In this document: positions 10,798 through 56,100 of the stretch, piece by piece
How the letters are laid out: the number at the start of each line of letters is the position of its first letter
Numbering within the stretch: position 1 is the stretch's first letter
Sequence record: NC_054912.1
DNA from: Escherichia phage vB_EcoM_F1
Direction: 5' to 3' (one strand)
Length of the DNA stretch: 64,000 nucleotides
The notes under the pieces: generated by a model
What the model was told of the DNA's origin: nothing
Seen by the model: the letters and a program-made list of their open reading frames with translations, nothing else
Databases searched by the model: none
Position numbers and translations under genes: made by a program

Positions 10798-12081
10798 ATG
10801 GCTAAAATCAACGAACTTCTGCGCGAATCAACCACAACGAATAGCAACTCAATCGGTCGCCCAAATCTCGTTGCTTTGACTCGCGCTACCACTAAATTAA
10901 TATATTCTGACATTGTAGCAACGCAAAGAACTAATCAACCTGTTGCTGCTTTTTATGGTATCAAATACCTTAACCCAGACAACGAATTTACGTTTAAAAC
11001 TGGTGCTACTTACGCTGGCGAAGCCGGATATGTAGACCGAGAACAAATCACAGAATTAACAGAAGAGTCTAAATTAACTCTCAATAAAGGCGATTTATTC
11101 AAATATAATAATATCGTTTATAAAGTATTAGAAGATACACCATTTGCTGATATTGAAGAAAGTGATTTAGAATTAGCTCTTCAGATTGCAATTGTTCTTT
11201 TAAAGGTTCGTCTATTTTCTGATGCTGCAGTAACAAGCAAATTTGAAAGCTCTGATAGCGAAATTGCGGATGCTAGATTCCAGATTAATAAATGGCAAAC
11301 CGCAGTTAAATCTCGTAAACTTAAAACTGGCATTACAGTTGAATTAGCACAAGATTTAGAAGCAAATGGATTCGATGCTCCTAATTTCTTGGAAGATTTG
11401 CTTGCAACCGAAATGGCAGATGAAATCAATAAAGATATTCTGCAGTCTTTGATTACAGTGTCAAAACGTTATAAAGTTGCAGGAATTACTGATACTGGAT
11501 TCATTGATTTGAGTTATGCATCTGCACCTGAAGCGGGTCGTTCATTATATCGAATGGTATGTGAAATGGTTTCACATATCCAAAAAGAATCAACTTATAC
11601 AGCAACGTTCTGTGTTGCTTCAGCTCGTGCTGCTGCGATTCTTGCTGCATCAGGTTGGTTAAAACATAAACCAGAAGATGATAAATATCTTTCACAAAAT
11701 GCCTACGGGTTCTTAGCTAATGGTTTACCGCTTTATTGCGATACTAACAGCCCATTAGATTATGTAATCGTTGGTGTAGTAGAAAATATCGGTGAAAAAG
11801 AAATTGTTGGATCAATTTTCTATGCTCCGTATACAGAAGGTCTCGACTTAGATGACCCTGAACATGTAGGTGCATTTAAAGTTGTTGTTGACCCAGAAAG
11901 TTTGCAGCCATCTATCGGTTTATTAGTTAGATATGCTTTATCAGCAAATCCTTACACCGTAGCAAAAGATGAAAAAGAAGCAAGAGTAATTGATGGTGGA
12001 GACATGGATAAAATGGCGGGTCGTTCAGATTTGTCTGTTTTATTAGGTGTTAAGCTACCAAAAATTATCATTGATGAATAA
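10798..12081 (+). CDS. 24: head vertex protein gp24
   Basis: 427 aa, MAKINELLRESTTTNSNSIGRPNLVAL...; gp23 paralogue. Confidence 0.95.
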   Translation: MAKINELLRESTTTNSNSIGRPNLVALTRATTKLIYSDIVATQRTNQPVAAFYGIKYLNPDNEFTFKTGATYAGEAGYVDREQITELTEESKLTLNKGDLFKYNNIVYKVLEDTPFADIEESDLELALQIAIVLLKVRLFSDAAVTSKFESSDSEIADARFQINKWQTAVKSRKLKTGITVELAQDLEANGFDAPNFLEDLLATEMADEINKDILQSLITVSKRYKVAGITDTGFIDLSYASAPEAGRSLYRMVCEMVSHIQKESTYTATFCVASARAAAILAASGWLKHKPEDDKYLSQNAYGFLANGLPLYCDTNSPLDYVIVGVVENIGEKEIVGSIFYAPYTEGLDLDDPEHVGAFKVVVDPESLQPSIGLLVRYALSANPYTVAKDEKEARVIDGGDMDKMAGRSDLSVLLGVKLPKIIIDE

Positions 12082-25607: not shown

Positions 25608-25636
25608 ATGGGGACCTTTCGGTCCCCATATTTTTA
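25608..25636. terminator. terminator between convergent 54 and the alt-region operon
   Basis: GGGGACC-TTTC-GGTCCCC hairpin followed by ATATTTTTATTT. Confidence 0.7.
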
Positions 25637-25924
25637 TTTACGGAATGAAATGAAAGCAGAAACTGAAGCAACTAAACTGTCTTCAATATAAACTTCAATT
25701 TTTACCGGAGCTTCTGACTCAAATTTACCTGTTACTACACCCTGAAAAATACTTTCAGTCTGTTCTGGCTTTGAAAAATTTTCAGAAGGAAAAATTCCAA
25801 ACTTTTTATCTGTTCCGAAAATTTTGATAAATTCATCATAAACTGCTTCATTAAAAGCATTATCAGCAGGAATAACGCCTTCAACTACAAGTTCTTGACC
25901 TAAAAAGCGTAAAGAAGATTTCAT
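25634..25924 (-). CDS. hypothetical protein (alt.-3 position)
   Basis: 96-aa ORF with SD GAGGA, directly downstream of a sigma70-type early promoter. Confidence 0.6.
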   Translation of the reverse strand: MKSSLRFLGQELVVEGVIPADNAFNEAVYDEFIKIFGTDKKFGIFPSENFSKPEQTESIFQGVVTGKFESEAPVKIEVYIEDSLVASVSAFISFRK

Positions 25925-25955
25925 TTTGTGTTCCTCATGTTATGTCAGTAAGACT

Positions 25956-25984
25956 ACTATAACACAACACGAGGGACTTGTAAA
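25956..25984 (-). promoter_or_regulatory. sigma70-type early promoter (copy A)
   Basis: minus strand GTTTACA-N17-TATAGT with TGn extension; leader and SD GAGGA follow. Confidence 0.6.
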
Positions 25985-26336
25985 CTACATTTTGAACTTT
26001 TTAGTACGCGTAATAGGCATGCGTCGATTTTATACTGTTTCATTGTTTGAAGAGCAGTATCAAAAACAGCATTAATGACACCAATTGGATTTCCACCCAA
26101 CTTAACTAATGATAGTTTCTCATTAACACCTATCATTACGATATGCATCATTTTGTCGCCTGGTTTAACGTTTTATTTGTATCACCGCCAGAGGTGTATG
26201 TACAAAATCTAAATCCAGGAAGCACGCTTTCTTCGCCGGCTTGAATAGCAAAAATTTGTGGTATTTTATGCTTAGGATTTAAGTTAACAACCGGCGCCGA
26301 AGCGCCGTCAAATAATTATGTAATAAGTTCCATGAT
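25957..26336 (-). pseudogene. degenerate tandem copy of the alt 5' region
   Basis: starts ATG GAA CTT ATT ACA then TAA (MELIT*); downstream frame encodes MMHIV...QTMKQYKIDACLLRVLKS matching Alt QTMRQYKIDACMLRILKS; DNA 26160-26336 is alignable to 28200-28388. Confidence 0.7.
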
Positions 26337-32366: not shown

Positions 32367-32744
32367 TTAAATATCAAATTCGTTAAGAACTACATCAAAG
32401 ATTGCTTCAAGATGCTCAGGTTTAGCTCTGTTACTCAGAATATGACGAATCCAAGTTTTAACTAAGAGTTTACGATTAGCACCATTCCAGCAAGGATGAG
32501 TCCCTAAATCGCGTTGACGGAAATCATCATCCAGAGCGATTTTAAAGTTGGAACCTTCCATCGTGATTGAAACTGTAATACCGTTTTCAAATCGCATATA
32601 AACGTAGTTAGGAGTCATATACTGATCGATTTCACATACTGATCCATTTTGATGTTTCCAGAGGCAAATAGTATCAATAGAACCTGCAATACCATTAGAA
32701 ACATATTTACGTTCAAAGTTGATGTAGTTCATTTTATTCTCCAA
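32367..32744 (-). CDS. hypothetical protein
   Basis: 125-aa ORF downstream of an early promoter. Confidence 0.55.
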   Translation of the reverse strand: MENKMNYINFERKYVSNGIAGSIDTICLWKHQNGSVCEIDQYMTPNYVYMRFENGITVSITMEGSNFKIALDDDFRQRDLGTHPCWNGANRKLLVKTWIRHILSNRAKPEHLEAIFDVVLNEFDI

Positions 32745-32768
32745 GATGTTTAATTGCGGTACAGGTAT

Positions 32769-32797
32769 ATAATATCATATCCTGTACCAAAGTAAAC
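32769..32797 (-). promoter_or_regulatory. sigma70-type early promoter
   Basis: minus strand GTTTACT-N16-TATTAT, enclosed by inverted repeat GGTACAGG/CCTGTACC. Confidence 0.5.
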
Positions 32798-32799
32798 AA

Positions 32800-33132
32800 T
32801 TATTTTACTACTTTCCAATGCTGCATGTCAAGTTTACCAACTTTTTTCATCTTCTCAATTAAGCGTTCGGCACGTTGGCGAGCTGTAACATAATGCCATT
32901 CGCCTAATTCATTTTGTTCAATTTTTCCAACGATTACTGTATTCAATTCATAAATCCAACCGGTAAAGAAATTATGAACTTGAATTGTAAAGGTGAAATC
33001 TGTTCCCATACCTTCTGTTGTTTCTACTTCAATAATATCACCTTCAACTGCCATTAAGAACCACATAGTTTCATTATATGCACCGTTGAAGCATTTAGTT
33101 TTAACCGCAGCGTTCAGATTAATCGTTTTCAT
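32800..33132 (-). CDS. hypothetical protein
   Basis: 110-aa ORF with SD AAGGAG, downstream of an early promoter. Confidence 0.55.
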   Translation of the reverse strand: MKTINLNAAVKTKCFNGAYNETMWFLMAVEGDIIEVETTEGMGTDFTFTIQVHNFFTGWIYELNTVIVGKIEQNELGEWHYVTARQRAERLIEKMKKVGKLDMQHWKVVK

Positions 33133-33159
33133 TTTATTCTCCTTTGTTTGTGTAAGATA

Positions 33160-33189
33160 ATACTATCACAAAGGAACCATACTGTAAAC
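33160..33189 (-). promoter_or_regulatory. sigma70-type early promoter
   Basis: minus strand GTTTACA-N17-TAGTAT; just downstream of the 33209-33238 terminator. Confidence 0.5.
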
Positions 33190-33208: not shown

Positions 33209-33238
33209 AAAATAAAAAAGGACTCCCGAAGGAGTCCT
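33209..33238 (-). terminator. terminator after the small basic-protein gene
   Basis: GGACTCC-TTCG-GGAGTCC hairpin followed by TTTTTTATTTT on the minus strand. Confidence 0.65.
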
Positions 33239-33242
33239 CAAC

Positions 33243-36069: not shown

Positions 36070-36302
36070 AGTACGCCATACACCCTTTGTGCTTCAACTA
36101 ATCCATCAAAATCCAATTTAAGATGCGATATTTGATCGCCATCACCTGGATTCACAATTACTAATACTGAACGAGGAGTTTCGGTAATAACACGAACCGA
36201 TGTTTCAGGAAATCGTTCAGAAACCTTATTTACTAATTCCTGTGCAAATAGTTTAACTTTTTCTTGGAATTCTTTAACAGTAATCGGTTTTTCACTTAGC
36301 AT
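36066..36302 (-). CDS. hypothetical protein (cd.2 position)
   Basis: 78-aa ORF with SD GAGGA downstream of an early promoter. Confidence 0.55.
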   Translation of the reverse strand: MLSEKPITVKEFQEKVKLFAQELVNKVSERFPETSVRVITETPRSVLVIVNPGDGDQISHLKLDFDGLVEAQRVYGVL

Positions 36303-36331
36303 TTTGTTTTCCTCATTTGTTTGGTAGAGCT

Positions 36332-36361
36332 ATAATATCACAACTCTACCGTAAAGTAAAC
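36332..36361 (-). promoter_or_regulatory. sigma70-type early promoter
   Basis: minus strand GTTTACT-N17-TATTAT, enclosed by inverted repeat GGTAGAG/CTCTACC. Confidence 0.5.
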
Positions 36362-39109: not shown

Positions 39110-39606
39110 AAAGTTTTAATAACCTCTATAATATCGTCTTGAGAAAGACCGTTAATTAAAATATGATGTTCAGCTGGAGATTTAGAAATTTTAAAGCATG
39201 CCTCAACATCTTCTGCCATATCCGATGCACTACGGTTTGGATTACTAATACCAAGGCGGTGTTTTCCCGTCAAAGGATTAACGATGATATAGCATTTGCA
39301 GTTATTGATATGAACATTAGGTTGAGTCTGATTAATGAACACTTCACAATCATACTTAGCGAGTTGATTTTCTAAAAAGACTTTCATCTCTTCAACCGCA
39401 TCAGGAAGCATATCACGGGCTTGCTCAAGACGACGATTTCGATATTCTTTAATGGTCGTTTTCCGCTTGACTTGCTTAGCTAAATCTTTCTTAAGATCAG
39501 TGATATATCCAACTCGACGATTTCCTTTGAATACAGAAATCCCATCTGTAGTATCACCGTATGCTTCAACGACCATTTCAGTAGTAATAAGTTGTAAATC
39601 CATCAT
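39100..39606 (-). CDS. alc: Alc, inhibitor of host transcription on cytosine-containing DNA
   Basis: 168 aa, MMDLQLITTEMVVEAYGDTTDGISVFKGNRRVGY...; early promoter upstream. Confidence 0.9.
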   Translation of the reverse strand: MMDLQLITTEMVVEAYGDTTDGISVFKGNRRVGYITDLKKDLAKQVKRKTTIKEYRNRRLEQARDMLPDAVEEMKVFLENQLAKYDCEVFINQTQPNVHINNCKCYIIVNPLTGKHRLGISNPNRSASDMAEDVEACFKISKSPAEHHILINGLSQDDIIEVIKTLCM

Positions 39607-39634
39607 AAAGTCCTCATGTTATGTCAGTAAGACT

Positions 39635-39663
39635 ACTGTAACACAACACGAGGGACTTGTAAA
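39635..39663 (-). promoter_or_regulatory. sigma70-type early promoter (copy B, alc)
   Basis: minus strand GTTTACA-N17-TACAGT; 53 of 54 nt identical to copy A. Confidence 0.6.
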
Positions 39664-39667
39664 CAGC

Positions 39668-48538: not shown

Positions 48539-48781
48539 TTAAACAGACTTTTTCACAATTTTCCAATCAGCTTTAAACTGTTCAACGTCAGAATGGTAAA
48601 TCCAGAATCCTGCGCTTTCTCCGTCTTCATAAAGAGGGCATCCATCGCATTCATCTTCCCATCCCATATCACGTAAAAGATGTTCAGCTTTTTCAACAAG
48701 TTCAGAATCTTTACCGATGATATTAAAATACCATTTACCTTTAACTTCTGAATCTTTGATGCTTTGGCGTTGTAATCTCAT
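48539..48781 (-). CDS. hypothetical protein (frd.2 position)
   Basis: 80-aa ORF with SD AAGGAG downstream of an early promoter. Confidence 0.55.
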   Translation of the reverse strand: MRLQRQSIKDSEVKGKWYFNIIGKDSELVEKAEHLLRDMGWEDECDGCPLYEDGESAGFWIYHSDVEQFKADWKIVKKSV

Positions 48782-48806
48782 TTTATTCTCCTTAGTTGAT
48801 AGGGTA

Positions 48807-48835
48807 ATAGTATCACACTACTACCCTGATGTAAA
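48807..48835 (-). promoter_or_regulatory. sigma70-type early promoter
   Basis: minus strand GTTTACA-N17-TACTAT, enclosed by inverted repeat AGGGTA/TACCCT. Confidence 0.5.
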
Positions 48836-48838
48836 CAA

Positions 48839-49533: not shown

Positions 49534-49761
49534 TTATTGTTCAATCAGTCCCATGTAAAATTCTGCGTCTTCAGAATCCATGCCATCGCAATATTCATTA
49601 GCCATAAAGCGGGTAAGGTCTTCAAGAGGACCTTCAATAACGATTTGAATACTCCAAAACTTAGAATCTTGCACGCTTGTGATACTAAGTTCAGGATAAC
49701 GATTACGAATAATCTCTTCAATATATTCAAAATCAACGATGTCAATATCAACTTTAGCCAT
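49534..49761 (-). CDS. hypothetical small protein
   Basis: 75 aa from ATG 49761 (MAKVDIDIV...) with SD AAAGAGGAAA; the track ORF begins further upstream at 49887. Confidence 0.5.
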
Positions 49762-49857
49762 ATTATTTTCCTCTTTAATCATCAGCAGTATTGCCGATAG
49801 TTGTATAGTACCATGGAAGGACAAGGATGTAAACCGTTTTGTGAAAAAAATTTTTGA

Positions 49858-52159: not shown

Positions 52160-53077
52160 TCAAAATTCATTAATGCTATTAGTTAATTTAGAAAGACCCG
52201 CTTTTACAAAATATGAATAAATTTTGCCACGCGGTGGTAATTTATATGAATTATAGTAATTCACAATGTTTGAAGCAATATTATCAGGAATATAATCAAA
52301 ATCAATTAGAACTAAATTTTCTTTATAACGATTATATTCAGATTCTGTAAGAAGCACCTTAGCTTGCTCACGGTCATTAGCAATAGCTTCAACGATTGAA
52401 GTTTTCATTGAAGGAGTTCGTTCACCTTCAACTCTGGTAAACCAAAAGTCAGATCGTACTTTAACTGAAGCAACGTTATCCTTTTTGTCGCCTTTAAGGA
52501 TTTTAGTCATACAGTCAATTTCAGCAGAACCGCTTTTAATTTTAACCCATTTCTTATGCATCGGTGACCATTGCTTAACATTTGGATATTTGTGAAGCTG
52601 TGTAAAGTCACCATCCGATGAAATGATCAAAATCTTATGTCCTTCTAAAGATAACTTTTTAACAAGAACAGCAATGTGGTCATCTGCTTCATACTTATCA
52701 ATATCCATAACGATGTATGGCATATAAGCTTTCAATTCATCTATAACTTTATGGCTGGATTCAAAATAACCTTCCCAGTCCCAAGTAGATTCTTCTCGTG
52801 CTTTTCCACGGTTTTTCTTGTAATAGTAAGCAAAATCACGACGCCAATATCCAGATTTCGCGTTATCAATACACAGCACAATTTTAGTGTATCCAAGAGT
52901 CTTTGCTTTTTTGACATTAAACTTAATTGAGTTCAATATCAAATGACGAACCATTGATAAATTAATTTTTTCTTTATCTGGGAAGTTTACTAAAGCAGTT
53001 GAAAGCGCAATCTGACTAAAGTCAATAAAGCAAATTCCTTCTTTGTAATCTTCATCCAGCATCATTTCTAAATCCAT
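52160..53077 (-). CDS. rnh: RNase H (5'-3' exonuclease, FEN family)
   Basis: 305 aa from ATG 53077 (MDLEMMLDEDYKEGIC...), SD GAGGT; the track ORF at 53092 begins on TTG. Confidence 0.92.
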   Translation of the reverse strand: MDLEMMLDEDYKEGICFIDFSQIALSTALVNFPDKEKINLSMVRHLILNSIKFNVKKAKTLGYTKIVLCIDNAKSGYWRRDFAYYYKKNRGKAREESTWDWEGYFESSHKVIDELKAYMPYIVMDIDKYEADDHIAVLVKKLSLEGHKILIISSDGDFTQLHKYPNVKQWSPMHKKWVKIKSGSAEIDCMTKILKGDKKDNVASVKVRSDFWFTRVEGERTPSMKTSIVEAIANDREQAKVLLTESEYNRYKENLVLIDFDYIPDNIASNIVNYYNSYKLPPRGKIYSYFVKAGLSKLTNSINEF

Positions 53078-53139
53078 ATGAACCTCGTTCAATTAGTGAG
53101 ATTTCTATTATATACTATCTAAATCTTAAAGTAAATAAG

Positions 53140-53181: not shown

Positions 53182-56100
53182 ATGGCCGAGATTAAAAGAA
53201 AGTTCAGAGCAGAAGATGGTCTGGACGCAGGTGGTGATAAAATAATCAACGTAGCTTTAGCTGATCGTACCGTAGGAACTGACGGTGTTAACGTTGATTA
53301 CTTAATTCAAGAAAACACAGTTCAACAATATGATCCAACTCGTGGATATTTAAAAGATTTTGTAATCATTTATGATAACCGCTTTTGGGCTGCTATAAAT
53401 GATATTCCAAAACCAGCAGGAGCTTTTAATAGCGTACGATGGAGAGCGTTACGTACCGATGCAAACTGGACAACTGTTTCATCAGGACCTTATCAATTAA
53501 AGTCAGGTGAATTAATTTCAGTTAATACTGCAGCAGGAAATGACATTACATTTACTTTACCATCTTCTCCAATTGACGGTGATACTATCGTTCTCCAAGA
53601 CATTGGAGGAAAACCTGGAGTTAACCAAGTTTTAATTACAGCTCCGGTACAAAGCATTGTAAATTTTAGAGGTCAGCAAGTACGTTCAGTACTAATGACT
53701 CATCCAAAATCACAGATAGTTTTAATTTTTAGTAATCGTCTGTGGCAAATGTATGTCGCTGATTATAGTAGAGAAGCTGTAGTTGTAACGCCTGCGAGTC
53801 TCTATCAGGCGCAATCAAACGATTTTATCGTACGTAGATTTACTTCTGCTGCACCAATTAATGTTAAACTTCCAAGATTTGCTAATCATGGAGATATTAT
53901 TAATTTCGTCGATTTAGATAAACTAAATCCGCTTTATCATACAATTGTTACTACATACGATGAAACGACTTCAATACAAGAAGTTGGAACTCATTCCATT
54001 GAAGGCCGTACAACAATTGACGGTTTCTTGATGTTTGATGATAATGAGAAATTGTGGAGATTGTTTGACGGGGATAGTAAAGCACGTTTACGTATTATAA
54101 CGACTAATTCTAATATTCGTCCAAATGAAGAAGTTATGGTATTTGGTGCGAATAATGGAACAGCTCAGACAATTGAACTTCAGCTTCCGACTGATATTTC
54201 TGTTGGTGATACTGTTAAAATTTCCATGAATTACATGAGAAAAGGACAAACGGTTAAAATCAAAGCTGCTGGTGAAGATAAAATTGCTTCTTCAGTTCAA
54301 TTGCTGCAATTCCCAAAACGTTCAGAGTATCCGCCTGAAACTAAATGGGTAACAGTTCAAGAATTAGTTTTTAACGGTGAAACTAATTATGTTCCAGTTT
54401 TAGAGCTTGCTTATATAGAAGATTCTGATGGAAAATATTGGGTTGTACAGCAAAACGTTCCAACTGTAGAAAGAGTAGATTCTTTAAATGATTCTACTAG
54501 AGCAAGATTAGGCGTAATTGCTTTAGCTACACAAGCTCAAGCTAATGCTGATTTAGAAAATTCTCCACAAAAAGAATTGGCAATTACTCCAGAAACGTTA
54601 GCTAATCGTACTGCTACTGAAACTCGCAGAGGTATCGCAAGAATAGCAACAACTGCTCAAGTTAACCAGGATACTACATTCTCTTTTGCTGATGATATTA
54701 TCATCACTCCTAAAAAGCTGAATGAAAGAACAGCTACTGAAACTCGCAGAGGTGTTGCTGAAATTGCTACGCAGCAAGAAACTAATGCAGGAACCGATGA
54801 TACTACAATCATCACTCCTAAAAAGCTTCAAGCTCGTCAAGGTTCTGAATCATTATCTGGTATTGTAACCTTTGTATCTACTGCAGGTGCTACTCCAGCT
54901 TCTAGCCGTGAATTAAATGGTACGAATGTTTATAATAAAAACACTGATAATTTAGTTGTTTCACCTAAAGCTTTGGATCAGTATAAAGCTACTCCAACAC
55001 AACAAGGTGCGGTAATTTTAGCAGTTGAAAGTGAAGTAATTGCTGGACAAAGTCAGCAAGGATGGGCAAATGCTGTTGTAACGCCAGAAACGTTACATAA
55101 AAAGACATCAACTGATGGAAGAATTGGTTTAATTGAAATTGCTACGCAAAGCGAAGTTAATACAGGAACTGATTATACTCGTGCAGTCACTCCTAAAACT
55201 TTAAATGACCGTAGAGCAACTGAAAGTTTAAGTGGTATAGCTGAAATTGCGACACAAGTTGAATTCGACGCAGGCGTCGACGATACTCGTATCTCTACAC
55301 CATTAAAAATTAAAACCAGATTTAATAGTACTGATCGTACTTCTGTTGTTGCTCTATCTGGATTAGTTGAATCAGGAACTCTCTGGGACCATTATACCCT
55401 TAATATTCTTGAAGCAAATGAGACACAGCGTGGTACACTTCGTGTAGCTACACAGGTCGAAGCTGCTGCGGGAACATTGGATAATGTTCTAATAACTCCT
55501 AAAAAGCTTTTAGGTACTAAATCTACTGAAGCGCAAGAAGGTGTTATTAAAGTTGCAACTCAGTCTGAAACTGTGACTGGAACGTCAACAAATACTGCTG
55601 TATCTCCAAAAAATTTAAAATGGATTGTGCAGAGTGAACCTACTTGGGCAGCAACTACTCTGATAAGAGGTTTTGTTAAAACTTCATCTGGTTCAATTAC
55701 ATTCGTTGGTAATGATACGGTAGGTTCAACACAGCCATTAGAATCATATGAGAAAAATAGCTATGCAGTATCACCATATGAATTAAACCGTGTATTAGCA
55801 AATTATCTGCCGTTAAAAGCAAAAGCTGTAGATAGTAATTTATTGGATGGTCTAGATTCATCTCAGTTCATTCGTAGGGATATTGCGCAGACGGTTAATG
55901 GTTCACTAACCTTAACCCAACAAACGAATCTGAGTGCCCCTCTTGTATCATCTAGTACTGCTACGTTTGGTGGATCAGTTACAGCAAATAGTGTACTAAC
56001 TATTTCTAATACTGGAACAGAAACTCATCTGATTTTTGAGAAAGGACCTCAAATTGGAACTAACCAAGCGCAGACGGTAACTATTAGAGTGTGGGGTAAT

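What the first reader, a model, noticed from the sequence alone, without database searches (positions are those of the whole stretch)
32758..32797. Early promoters each sit inside their own inverted repeat
At six minus-strand sigma70-type early promoters the -10 hexamer is bracketed by a 6-9 bp inverted repeat whose arm sequence differs at every site. The pairs are GGTACAGG/CCTGTACC (32758-32788), GGTAGAG/CTCTACC (about 36318-36345), AGGGTA/TACCCT (48801-48827), TTTGTG/CACAAA (about 33140-33172), and CCTCGTGTT/AACATGAGG at copies A and B (25935-25976 and 39614-39655). The upstream arm lies in the spacer and the downstream arm near +1, in two cases overlapping the SD. Read-through transcripts from upstream would carry both arms and fold into a hairpin next to or over the ribosome-binding site; transcripts started at the local promoter would lack the 5' arm. 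This could be a positional device that limits translation to locally initiated mRNA, or a set of processing or binding sites. I do not recall this being described as a general rule.
Basis: seen in the sequence. Interest (0 to 1): 0.45.

Follow-up and report, generated by a model that had tools for sequence, protein, structure and literature searches.

The report
Early promoters inside read-through-only hairpins
In this T4-like phage most early promoters lie inside RNA hairpins that only transcripts arriving from upstream can form: one kind hides the next gene's ribosome-binding site, and the other matches the published 'PeSL' promoter stem-loops, so the pattern is real and conserved but only partly new.

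Summary
The window is Escherichia phage vB_EcoM_FN, a T4-like Tequatrovirus. All six inverted repeats exist, give or take 2-5 nt.

The pattern is far above chance. Across the T4 genome, 18 of 35 blindly chosen early promoters have a perfect spacer/downstream complement of at least 6 bp, against 3.9 expected. Nine have at least 8 bp, against 0.3 expected. It recurs in 42 related contigs. Orthologous promoters keep the pairing while the arm sequences change completely.

Mismatches are G·U in the sense strand, and sense RNA folds better than antisense. This points to RNA rather than a DNA cruciform.

There are two classes:
An anti-SD arm in the spacer pairs with the ribosome-binding site. Predicted SD accessibility is 0.03 in read-through RNA and 0.58 in locally started RNA.
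- **+1 class** (sites 1-3). A hairpin spans about -28 to +1 and leaves the SD free.

Stem-loops at T4-type early promoters are already published as PeSLs (Arbiol 2010, Comeau 2014). Promoter-inside-hairpin gating is known for T4 late genes e, soc, 49 and I-TevI. Two points were absent from the papers I could search: the anti-SD arm in early-promoter spacers, and its covariation.

The parts
32732..32797 (-). Early promoter of gene 30.7 with a +1-class hairpin. -35 at 32796-32791; 5' arm GGTACAGG 32788-32781; -10 at 32774-32769; 3' arm CCTGTACC 32765-32758; SD GGAGAATAAAA; ATG at 32732.
   Evidence: Fold -19.4 kcal/mol, z -4.75. Orthologs carry different arms, e.g. GCTGATTGAGTGT/ACACTCAATCAGC and TGTAGGAGAC/GTCTCCTACA.
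36300..36361 (-). Early promoter of cd.2 with a +1-class hairpin. -35 at 36360-36355; 5' arm GGTAGAG 36350-36344; -10 at 36337-36332; 3' arm CTCTACC 36329-36323; ATG at 36302.
   Evidence: z -5.35.
48779..48836 (-). Early promoter of frd.1 with a +1-class hairpin. -35 at 48835-48830; 5' arm AGGGTA 48827-48822; -10 at 48812-48807; 3' arm TACCCT 48806-48801; ATG at 48781.
   Evidence: 12-bp stem including G·U pairs, z -2.73.
33130..33189 (-). Early promoter of 30.8 with an SD-class hairpin. -35 at 33188-33183; anti-SD arm TCCTTTGT 33175-33168; -10 at 33165-33160; 3' arm ACAAAGGA 33147-33140, which overlaps the SD; ATG at 33132.
   Evidence: SD unpaired probability 0.04 in read-through RNA and 0.75 in local RNA. 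z -2.11. Not conserved outside close T4 relatives.
25922..25985 (-). Copy A: early promoter of alt.-3 with an SD-class hairpin. -35 at 25984-25979; 5' arm CCTCGTGTT 25974-25966; -10 at 25961-25956; 3' arm AACATGAGG 25941-25933 (contains the SD); ATG at 25924.
   Evidence: z -4.43. It is a 54-nt duplicate of copy B. The SD is also predicted paired in the local transcript (0.02).
39604..39664 (-). Copy B: early promoter of alc with an SD-class hairpin. -35 at 39663-39658; 5' arm CCTCGTGTT 39653-39645; -10 at 39640-39635; 3' arm AACATGAGG 39620-39612 (contains the SD); ATG at 39606.
   Evidence: z -6.06. SD unpaired 0.00 read-through vs 0.51 local. 20 of 28 distinct orthologous alc promoters keep a stem of >=8 bp with different sequences.
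53075..53136 (-). Early promoter of rnh with a weak +1-type repeat, AGATTT 53126-53121 / AAATCT 53104-53099.
   Evidence: The fold is not better than shuffles, z +0.69. May be chance.
49755..49834 (-). Early promoter upstream of frd.3. It has no contiguous repeat of >=6 bp, but the pyrimidine-rich spacer (TCCTTGTCCTTCC) is predicted to pair with the SD.
   Evidence: SD unpaired 0.03 read-through vs 0.91 local. Overall fold z -0.76.

Best explanation
These are RNA hairpins written into T4-type early promoters so that they exist only in transcripts coming from upstream.

The 5' arm sits in the -35/-10 spacer, the nearest freely variable DNA upstream of the start site. An mRNA started at the local promoter never contains it. 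Two classes share this logic.

1. SD class. [quoted passage not shown] On read-through RNA the site is closed. On locally initiated RNA it is open. Protein would then be made essentially only while the gene's own early promoter fires, in the first minutes. Later read-through RNA stays silent for that gene, and its GGAG is probably shielded from RegB.

2. +1 class. A stable hairpin (mean -16.6 kcal/mol) runs from just after the -35 to about +1, with the -10 in or near the loop. It begins about 11 nt after the upstream stop codon and leaves the SD free. It has the same geometry as the published PeSL stem-loops that overlap the -10. Its most likely role is an intercistronic element on read-through RNA: an attenuator, a barrier to 3' exonucleases, or a folding insulator.

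Shown here: the repeats, their statistics, their covariation, the strand asymmetry and the arm positions. Inferred: the start site about 7 nt after the -10, that the hairpins form in vivo, and every functional consequence.
For: - Enrichment in T4: 18/35 promoters >=6 bp and 9/35 >=8 bp, against 3.9 and 0.26 expected from partner swaps, p<5e-5. Random and pseudo-promoter controls average 4.3-4.4.
- Same excess in every one of the 42 IMG/VR loci (Cd identity 61-99%) that had enough promoters to test.
- In 67 independent spacer families, 30 have stems >=8 bp.
- Covariation: 20/28 alc and 21/27 30.7 orthologous promoters keep >=8 bp with unrelated arm sequences. Pairing with a diverged ortholog's downstream half reaches >=8 bp in only 4-5% of cases.
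- RNA level: internal mismatches are G·U in 17/24 and A·C in 2/24. One representative per family gives 7 G·U and 0 A·C. Sense RNA is more stable than antisense in 37/40 +1-class hairpins, p 1e-7.
- SD class: SD unpaired probability is 0.03 in read-through RNA, 0.58 in local RNA and 0.28 with a shuffled spacer, p 3e-10.
- 31 of 33 SD partners lie in the spacer and 0 in 1954 nt of transcribed leader.
- The effect is specific to early promoters. Middle promoters show no excess, and late promoters show only the known individual cases such as e.
- Precedent: the same logic at T4 late promoters for e, soc, 49 and I-TevI (PMC3014915). RegB is inhibited by secondary structure.
Against: - There is no experimental evidence for these sites.
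- Start sites are inferred, not mapped.
- Folding is thermodynamic. It ignores co-transcriptional kinetics and ribosomes. The upstream stop codon ends a median of 11 nt before the 5' arm, so terminating ribosomes could partly open the stem.
- Copy A's SD is predicted closed in the local transcript too.
- The 30.8 and alt.-3 hairpins are not conserved beyond close T4 relatives.
- 41% of promoters have no stem >=6 bp, so this is a frequent design, not a universal rule.
- A strong intrinsic terminator lies just upstream of the 30.8 promoter, which limits the read-through the hairpin would act on.
- The function of the +1 class is undetermined.
- A fixed-register MAFFT alignment gives only modest covariation statistics.
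Confidence: 0.6

Rival explanations
1. PeSL attenuator/terminator. The stem-loops stop or attenuate transcription arriving from upstream promoters, as Arbiol et al. proposed. This prevents transcription from piling up and spilling over.
For: Published test: one RB49 stem-loop (PeSL211/210) cut downstream lacZ expression about as much as the rrnB T1 terminator (PMC2839356). The RB49 class that overlaps the -10 has the same geometry as the +1 class here. The hairpins are intergenic and stable.
Against: There is no U-tract after the 3' arm: mean 1.4-1.7 T in the next 8 nt. SD-class loops are 12-33 nt, which is unlike a terminator. The tested RB49 stem is the GC-rich type that lies inside the spacer, not this type. 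The idea does not explain why the 3' arm so often is the SD, nor why the SD partner is never in the leader.
Confidence: 0.2
2. RNA stability and processing element. The hairpin blocks 3' exonucleases and so protects the upstream cistron after RegB or RNase E cuts the leader. When it covers the GGAG, it shields that site from RegB.
For: The hairpin begins about 11 nt after the upstream stop codon. Sites 1, 3 and 4 carry the canonical RegB/S1 target GGAGAAUAAAA (PMC1702504). [quoted passage not shown]
Against: A stabiliser would not need its 5' arm to lie upstream of the start site or its arms to straddle the -10. No decay data exist for these sites. This idea can coexist with the main explanation.
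Confidence: 0.2
3. Translational coupling. The SD-masking hairpin makes downstream translation on polycistronic RNA depend on ribosomes finishing the upstream gene and melting the stem. It would not silence translation.
For: The upstream stop codon ends a median of 11 nt (quartiles 7.5-14) before the 5' arm. That is about the reach of a terminating ribosome.
Against: At 11 nt the ribosome reaches only the base of an 8-13 bp stem. The geometry is identical for +1-class hairpins, which do not mask the SD. The short distance follows simply from genome compaction, since the stop codon lies 3-5 nt before the -35.
Confidence: 0.12
4. DNA-level element. The repeats act as cruciforms or hairpins that promote recombination (PeSL-mediated module shuffling, endonuclease VII targets) or help promoter melting. 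Alternatively, they are kept perfect by templated quasipalindrome correction with no function.
For: PeSL-flanked modules recombine and form mini-circles (PMC2839356). Copies A and B are a 54-nt duplicate 13.7 kb apart.
Against: Strand asymmetry: G·U is tolerated and A·C is not, and sense is more stable than antisense in 37/40. Arm positions are tied to the start site and the SD. Recombination between promoters needs sequence homology, not intramolecular pairing.
Confidence: 0.07
5. Chance, or a by-product of promoter consensus in AT-rich DNA.
For: Short repeats of 4-6 bp are common: 12% of random positions reach >=6 bp. The rnh site is no better than shuffles. Sites 1-3 share GGTA/TACC.
Against: The partner-swap control keeps all consensus features and still gives a 12-SD excess. 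Covariation in orthologs. No excess at pseudo-promoters or middle promoters, and none at late promoters beyond a few individual cases.
Confidence: 0.02

Closest known systems
PeSL (promoter-early stem-loop) cassettes of T4-type phages (Arbiol et al. 2010, PMC2839356; Comeau et al. 2014, PMC4122927)
   Same: A strong sigma70-type early promoter with an AT-rich upstream region, a stem-loop, then SD and ATG. The elements sit in front of small genes in plastic regions. In RB49/phi1 the stems are most often between -35 and -10 or overlapping the -10. I reproduced that geometry in RB49, and it equals the +1 class here. G·T pairs in stems were noted by the authors.
   Different: The authors read the stems as terminators/attenuators and recombination substrates. 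Translation, SD pairing and covariation are not mentioned. For the T4/PST pair, the genus of this window, they place the stems 'just upstream of the promoter', not around the -10. The SD class is not among their five positional subclasses.
Promoter-inside-hairpin translational control of T4 genes e, soc, 49 and I-TevI (reviewed in PMC3014915)
   Same: Long transcripts from upstream fold the SD/AUG into a helix. A promoter lies in the DNA that encodes the 5' strand, so locally started mRNA lacks that strand and is translated. For e the reported effect is about 100-fold.
   Different: Those are late (gp55, TATAAATA) promoters that delay expression of a few genes located in early regions. Here the promoters are early sigma70 promoters, the effect would restrict expression to the earliest minutes, and it recurs at about a quarter of early promoters across genera. 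My scan recovers the gene e case among late promoters but finds no class-wide excess there.
Intrinsic (rho-independent) terminators
   Same: A stable intergenic RNA hairpin just downstream of a stop codon.
   Different: No U-tract follows. Loops are long in the SD class. True terminators in the window look different, e.g. 33239-33218 GAGGACTCC-TTCG-GGAGTCCTT-TTTTATTTT.
Hairpin-containing early promoters of phage N4, recognised as extruded DNA hairpins by the virion RNA polymerase (recalled from memory, not checked)
   Same: Early phage promoters that contain an inverted repeat.
   Different: N4 hairpins are short, conserved in sequence and act as DNA. Here the arms vary freely, the host sigma70 polymerase is used, and the strand asymmetry points to RNA.

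Membership tests
PeSL | Sigma70-like early promoter (-35, about 17 nt, -10) | tested here: met
   All sites have GTTTAC(A/T), 16-17 nt, TAnnAT. This matches the published T4/PST consensus TTTACW-N17-TAYWAT.
PeSL | [quoted passage not shown] | tested here: met
   At least 60% A+T in the 30 nt upstream was a selection criterion. Values in the T4 scan were 67-87%.
PeSL | Sequence able to form a stable stem-loop within or next to the promoter | tested here: met
   z-scores of -2.1 to -6.1 at the six sites. Class-wide excess.
PeSL | Shine-Dalgarno and start codon at the 3' end of the element | tested here: met
   SD and ATG lie 20-45 nt after the -10 at every site.
PeSL | Stem-loop acts as a transcription terminator/attenuator | tested here: inconclusive
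   The sequence lacks a U-tract, so it is not a canonical intrinsic terminator. Activity itself cannot be measured with these tools.
PeSL | Repeated, homologous copies in plastic regions that flank small ORFs and mediate indels | tested here: inconclusive
   Copies A and B are 53/54 identical over 54 nt. The sites precede small ORFs (30.7, 30.8, cd.2, frd.1, alt.-3). Association with indels was not examined systematically.
T4 promoter-in-hairpin translational control (e/soc/49/I-TevI type) | SD and/or AUG held in a helix in transcripts from upstream | tested here: met
   In silico only. SD-class SD unpaired probability is 0.03, against 0.28 with a shuffled spacer. Not met for the +1 class (0.56).
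T4 promoter-in-hairpin translational control (e/soc/49/I-TevI type) | The promoter lies so that locally started RNA lacks the 5' strand | tested here: met
   The 5' arm is in the spacer in 31 of 33 cases and never in the leader. The start site is inferred at about 7 nt after the -10, not mapped.
T4 promoter-in-hairpin translational control (e/soc/49/I-TevI type) | The internal promoter is a late (or middle) promoter, which delays expression | tested here: not met
   The promoters here are early sigma70-type. Late and middle promoters show no class-wide excess.
T4 promoter-in-hairpin translational control (e/soc/49/I-TevI type) | Measured difference in translation between long and short transcripts | not testable with these tools
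   Needs reporter fusions or ribosome profiling.
Intrinsic terminator | GC-rich stem, short loop, then a U-tract | tested here: not met
   Mean 1.4-1.7 T in the 8 nt after the stem. None of the sites is called by the terminator scan.
DNA cruciform / hairpin promoter | Pairing equally good on both strands | tested here: not met
   G·U 17 vs A·C 2 among stem mismatches. Sense is more stable than antisense in 37/40.

The most novel reading that the evidence does not exclude
T4-like phages use a conserved grammar in which the origin of a transcript decides whether a gene on it is translated. About a quarter of early promoters carry an anti-Shine-Dalgarno arm in their own -35/-10 spacer. The gene is then translated only from its own immediate-early mRNA and stays silent on the delayed-early or middle read-through RNA that continues to cross it. 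Together with RegB, this would give a hard 'first minutes only' window for proteins such as Alc, RegB and DenV. A second hairpin class marks and insulates cistron boundaries on the same read-through RNAs.
Probability: 0.4. Interest if true: 0.65.

Novelty: new variant of a known kind. Interest (0 to 1): 0.5.

Why it matters
T4 is the textbook case of timed phage gene expression. Even so, the abrupt stop in synthesis of many early proteins is only partly explained by promoter shut-off and RegB.

If spacer-encoded anti-SD arms silence read-through copies of a gene, that adds a simple, purely cis-acting timing device. It would be conserved across several genera of T4-like phages.

It would also change how the promoter spacer is viewed. 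Spacer sequence is usually treated as neutral apart from its length. Here it is under selection for what it does as RNA.

Practical consequences:
- Annotating and engineering T4-like therapeutic phages. Moving a gene without its promoter spacer, or putting it under an upstream promoter, could silence or unsilence it.
- Reinterpreting PeSL stem-loops, so far read only as terminators and recombination sites.

Tried and rejected
- **RNAalifold on a MAFFT alignment of 19 alc promoters** predicted no consensus structure. The arm register shifts by 1-3 nt between lineages. A fixed-register count on that alignment gave only a modest signal: 67.9% paired vs 61.5% shuffled, covariation score 0.272 vs 0.187, exceeded by 1-2 of 500 shuffles. 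I replaced it with register-free tests, both within orthologs and genome-wide.
- **Intrinsic terminator reading:** rejected on U-tract counts.
- **Cruciform reading:** rejected on strand asymmetry.
- **Middle and late promoters as a generalisation:** no class-wide excess.
- **Swapping whole upstream regions as a null for SD accessibility** is contaminated by anti-SD spacers from other promoters. I repeated the test with shuffles of each promoter's own spacer.
- **Literature.** The reviews by Hinton 2010, Uzan & Miller 2010 and Nolan 2006 do not mention repeats around early promoters. Miller et al. 2003 (MMBR), Liebig & Rüger 1989 and Truncaite et al. 2006 are not held. An older description in those papers cannot be excluded.
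- **Protein searches, structure prediction and Rfam** were not used. The feature is non-coding, and family-level RNA models would not capture arms that vary freely.

Full report
**What the window is.** The window is 100% identical to Escherichia phage vB_EcoM_FN (MZ170041), a Tequatrovirus about 96-98% identical to T4-like phages. The minus strand between about 25.6 and 53.1 kb carries the early region: alt.-3, alt, 30, 30.1-30.9, rIII, 31, cd, pseT, alc, rnlA, nrdA, frd, 32 and rnh.

**The observation.** I read all six sites. Each has GTTTAC(A/T), a 16-17 nt spacer, TAnnAT, and then an SD and ATG 20-45 nt downstream. The stated arms are present. Coordinates are exact for sites 1 and 3 and off by 2-5 nt for the others.

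Four corrections apply:
- Copies A and B are one 54-nt duplication, 53/54 identical, with the single difference in the -10. There are therefore five independent sites.
- Sites 1-3 share a GGTA...TACC core.
- At site 4 the longer pairing is TCCTTTGT/ACAAAGGA, which covers the SD, rather than TTTGTG/CACAAA.
- ViennaRNA extends the stems of sites 1-3 into the -10 hexamer through G·U pairs, giving 12-16 bp with a 3-4 nt loop centred near -13.

Fold z-scores against dinucleotide shuffles are -4.75, -5.35, -2.73, -2.11, -4.43 and -6.06. Two further early promoters in the window are weak or negative: rnh at 53135 (z +0.69) and 49833 (z -0.76).

**Is it more than chance?** I fetched the whole T4 genome. 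I chose 35 candidate early promoters without looking at repeats. The criteria were TT[TG]ACN, 16-18 nt, TAnnnT, an AT-rich upstream region, and an SD plus ORF downstream. The statistic was the longest perfect antiparallel complement between the spacer and the stretch from the -10 to the start codon.

| Set | Mean | >=6 bp | >=8 bp |
|---|---|---|---|
| Real T4 early promoters | 6.23 | 18/35 | 9/35 |
| Partner swap, spacer of one promoter with downstream of another | 4.34 +/- 0.15 | 3.9 expected | 0.26 expected |
| Random T4 positions | 4.33 | 12% | 0.9% |
| Promoter-like hits outside promoter context | 4.39 | 12% | 0.9% |

The partner swap keeps every consensus feature. None of 20000 derangements reached the observed mean.

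T4 contains much stronger examples than the window:
- mobD.2: AGTTGACAAGATT/AATCTTGTCAACT, 13 bp.
- ipII: TCCTAGAATTGTGA/TCACAATTCTAGGA, 14 bp.
- ipI: TGATGAGGTA/TACCTCATCA, 10 bp.
- denV: TCTCCTGTAG/CTACAGGAGA, 10 bp.
- regB: CCTCTTgACTG/CAGTtAAGAGG.

The excess is specific to early promoters. MotA-box middle promoters show none, and TATAAATA late promoters show only individual cases, including the known gene e hairpin.

**Related genomes.** A search of IMG/VR with the Cd protein returned 42 loci of about 20 kb, with Cd identity 61-99%. In every locus with enough promoters, a promoter's own pairing exceeded the swap control.

Grouping promoters by the protein they precede shows the pairing kept while the sequence is replaced. 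For alc:
- CCTCGTGTT/AACATGAGG (T4 type)
- CTCCATTTGGTT/AACCAAATGGAG
- CCCCGTTTGGTT/AACCAAACGGAG
- CCTCATTTTGTTG/CAACAAAATGAGG
- CCTCATCAG/CTGATGAGG
- CCTCGTTTGTT/AACAAACGAGG
- CCTCATTTCGTT/AACGAAATGAGG
- In two lineages the hairpin is instead next to the -10: ATGGTAGGACT/AGTCCTACCAT and GGGTGTAAGG/CCTTACACCC.

For 30.7:
- GGTACAGG/CCTGTACC
- GCTGATTGAGTGT/ACACTCAATCAGC
- TGTAGGAGAC/GTCTCCTACA
- CTGAGGTTA/TAACCTCAG
- CTCCGTTGTATGT/ACATACAACGGAG (covers the SD)

Twenty of 28 distinct alc promoters and 21 of 27 distinct 30.7 promoters have their own stem of >=8 bp. Pairing a spacer with the downstream half of a diverged ortholog reaches 8 bp in only 4-5% of cases. The 30.8 and alt.-3 hairpins are not conserved beyond close T4 relatives.

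Pooling gives 150 non-redundant promoters, which fall into 67 spacer families. Thirty of those families have stems >=8 bp. RNAalifold on a MAFFT alignment failed because the register shifts between lineages. A fixed-register count was only modestly significant.

**RNA or DNA?** Internal mismatches in real stems are G·T or T·G in 17 of 24 cases and A·C or C·A in 2. In swapped pairs the figures are 88 and 25 of 306. With one representative per family there are 7 G·U and no A·C. The sense RNA is more stable than the antisense in 37 of 40 hairpins that hug the -10 (-16.6 vs -13.6 kcal/mol, p 1e-7), and this holds after correcting for composition. A cruciform needs both strands to pair, so the selected object is the sense transcript.

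**Two classes.** Among the 150 promoters there are four groups:
- 38 have a 3' arm that overlaps the SD (median 11 Watson-Crick pairs, loop about 22 nt).
- 40 have a 3' arm that starts 0-3 nt after the -10 (median 10 pairs, loop about 10 nt).
- 10 are intermediate and look like chance.
- 62 have no stem >=6 bp.

Neither class is followed by a U-tract: mean 1.4-1.7 T in the next 8 nt.

Partition-function folding gives these probabilities that the SD is unpaired:

| Class | Read-through RNA | RNA started 7 nt after the -10 | Own spacer shuffled | p (real vs shuffled) |
|---|---|---|---|---|
| SD class | 0.03 | 0.58 | 0.28 | 3e-10 |
| +1 class | 0.56 | 0.62 | 0.48 | 4e-4 |

The SD class therefore closes the ribosome-binding site specifically on read-through RNA. 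The +1 class does not close it and, if anything, keeps it open.

I then ran an unbiased search for the best partner of the SD segment. It covered the upstream 30 nt, the -35, the spacer, the -10, the discriminator and the transcribed leader. Thirty-one of 33 partners were in the spacer, one in 4500 nt of upstream sequence and none in 1954 nt of leader. That is what a device needs if it must be absent from the local transcript.

In the window, copies A and B and site 4 are SD class. Sites 1-3 and the weak rnh repeat are +1 class.

**What is known.** Arbiol et al. 2010 described PeSLs in RB49/phi1: strong sigma70-like promoters with an AT-rich upstream region, a stem-loop, and SD and ATG. They reported stems most commonly between -35 and -10 or overlapping the -10. 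They showed that one stem-loop lowers downstream lacZ expression about as much as rrnB T1, and that PeSLs recombine. Comeau et al. 2014 extended PeSLs to PST/T4 and nt-1/KVP40. For PST they placed the stems just upstream of the promoter and noted more variable stem sequences.

I scanned 50 kb of RB49 and found two forms: stems inside the spacer (GGGGATC...GATCCCC), and stems with the 5' arm at the end of the spacer and the 3' arm right after the -10 (GGGGGTAG-TAAGAT-ACTCCC). The second form has the geometry of the +1 class. Sites 1-3 are therefore PeSL stem-loops of a published subclass. The PeSL paper does not mention translation, ribosomes or covariation.

Separately, T4 genes e, soc, 49 and I-TevI are known to have their SD/AUG sequestered in long early transcripts. 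In each, a late promoter lies in the DNA encoding the 5' strand, so late transcripts are translated. The SD class applies the same logic at early promoters, with the opposite temporal consequence, and as a recurrent and conserved design.

The T4 reviews I could read do not describe it. Durand et al. 2006 set aside 16 RegB-resistant GGAG sites that lie in stable structures without analysing them. Older subscription papers could not be checked.

**Mechanism, with its limits.** The likeliest reading is that the promoter spacer doubles as the 5' strand of an RNA hairpin that only read-through transcripts contain.

For the SD class this should silence the gene on read-through RNA. Because RegB is inhibited by structure, it should also shield the GGAG there. 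Translation would be confined to the gene's own immediate-early mRNA.

For the +1 class the role is open: attenuation (the PeSL proposal), a 3'-exonuclease barrier for the upstream cistron, or folding insulation. The hairpin starts a median of 11 nt after the upstream stop codon. This also leaves room for ribosome-dependent opening, that is, coupling.

Nothing functional is shown here. Start sites are inferred. Folding ignores kinetics and ribosomes. Copy A's SD is predicted closed even in the local transcript. A strong terminator precedes the 30.8 promoter. Forty-one percent of promoters lack a clear stem.

**Verdict.** The +1 class is already published as PeSL, and the gating logic is already known for late genes. 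The anti-SD arm in early-promoter spacers, its covariation across genera and its strict placement upstream of the start site appear to be a new variant of known kinds.

Noticed in passing
window 25932-25985 and 39611-39664 (minus strand): A 54-nt promoter-plus-hairpin cassette is duplicated 13.7 kb apart, in front of alt.-3 and alc. It is 53/54 identical, and the only difference is in the -10 (TATAGT vs TACAGT). The same duplication is in T4. It is the kind of repeat the PeSL papers propose as a recombination substrate.
   Followed up: partly
window 33218-33239 (minus strand) and 25608-25629 (both strands): Two canonical intrinsic terminators. GAGGACTCC-TTCG-GGAGTCCTT followed by TTTTATTTT lies 30 nt upstream of the 30.8 promoter. 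A bidirectional ATGGGGACC-loop-GGTCCCCAT lies between alt.-3 and gene 54. They show what real terminators look like here, and they limit read-through into 30.8.
   Followed up: partly
window 32802-32831 (minus strand): A second near-consensus sigma70 promoter (TTGACA, 18 nt, TAAAAT; 11 of 12 matches) lies inside the end of gene 30.8, 35 nt upstream of the 30.7 promoter. It may be a tandem promoter. Transcripts from it would contain the whole 30.7 hairpin.
   Followed up: no
window 32745-32735, 48794-48784, 33142-33132 (minus strand): Sites 1, 3 and 4 end in GGAGAATAAAATG. This is the canonical RegB/S1 target: GGAG followed by AAUAAAA (Durand et al. 2006, PMC1702504).
   Followed up: partly
T4 (L003/L001): -35 at 55383 and 146874; also 167085 and 50972; IMG/VR loci L010, L022, L034: A third arrangement: a palindrome entirely inside the spacer, e.g. 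CATAAAGCTTTATG, or CCAC-AAGGAT-GTGG with an SD-like AAGGA in the loop. It resembles the RB49 PeSL subclass 'between -35 and -10'. My spacer-versus-downstream statistic does not count it.
   Followed up: no
T4 L003: ipIII and ipII promoters (-35 at 66497 and 65798): The arms AATTGTGA...TCACAATT resemble the two half-sites of the symmetric lac operator, but with different spacing. Probably coincidence.
   Followed up: no
T4 L004: 116454 (+) and 116457 (-), between genes 26 and 51: Divergent late promoters (TATAAATA on both strands) share a GCTCCTTT/AAAGGAGC repeat. On either strand it could pair the SD with sequence upstream of the late promoter. This would be a two-way version of the gene e arrangement.
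   Followed up: no
window 33717 (minus strand); L010, L012, L029, L032 near position 12000: A conserved block, TTTACGgtgtacctcttgaatgTATT(C/T)T, in the rIII to 30.9 region is kept in phages whose flanking sequence has diverged. It scores as promoter-like but has a poor -10 and no clear downstream gene. Its nature is unknown.
   Followed up: no
T4 146142 vs window 48835: The frd.1 promoter and hairpin are identical in T4 and FN, but the sequence after the hairpin differs. In T4 the annotated frd.1 start is about 138 nt downstream of the -35. In FN it is 54 nt downstream. This is an indel right next to a promoter cassette.
   Followed up: no
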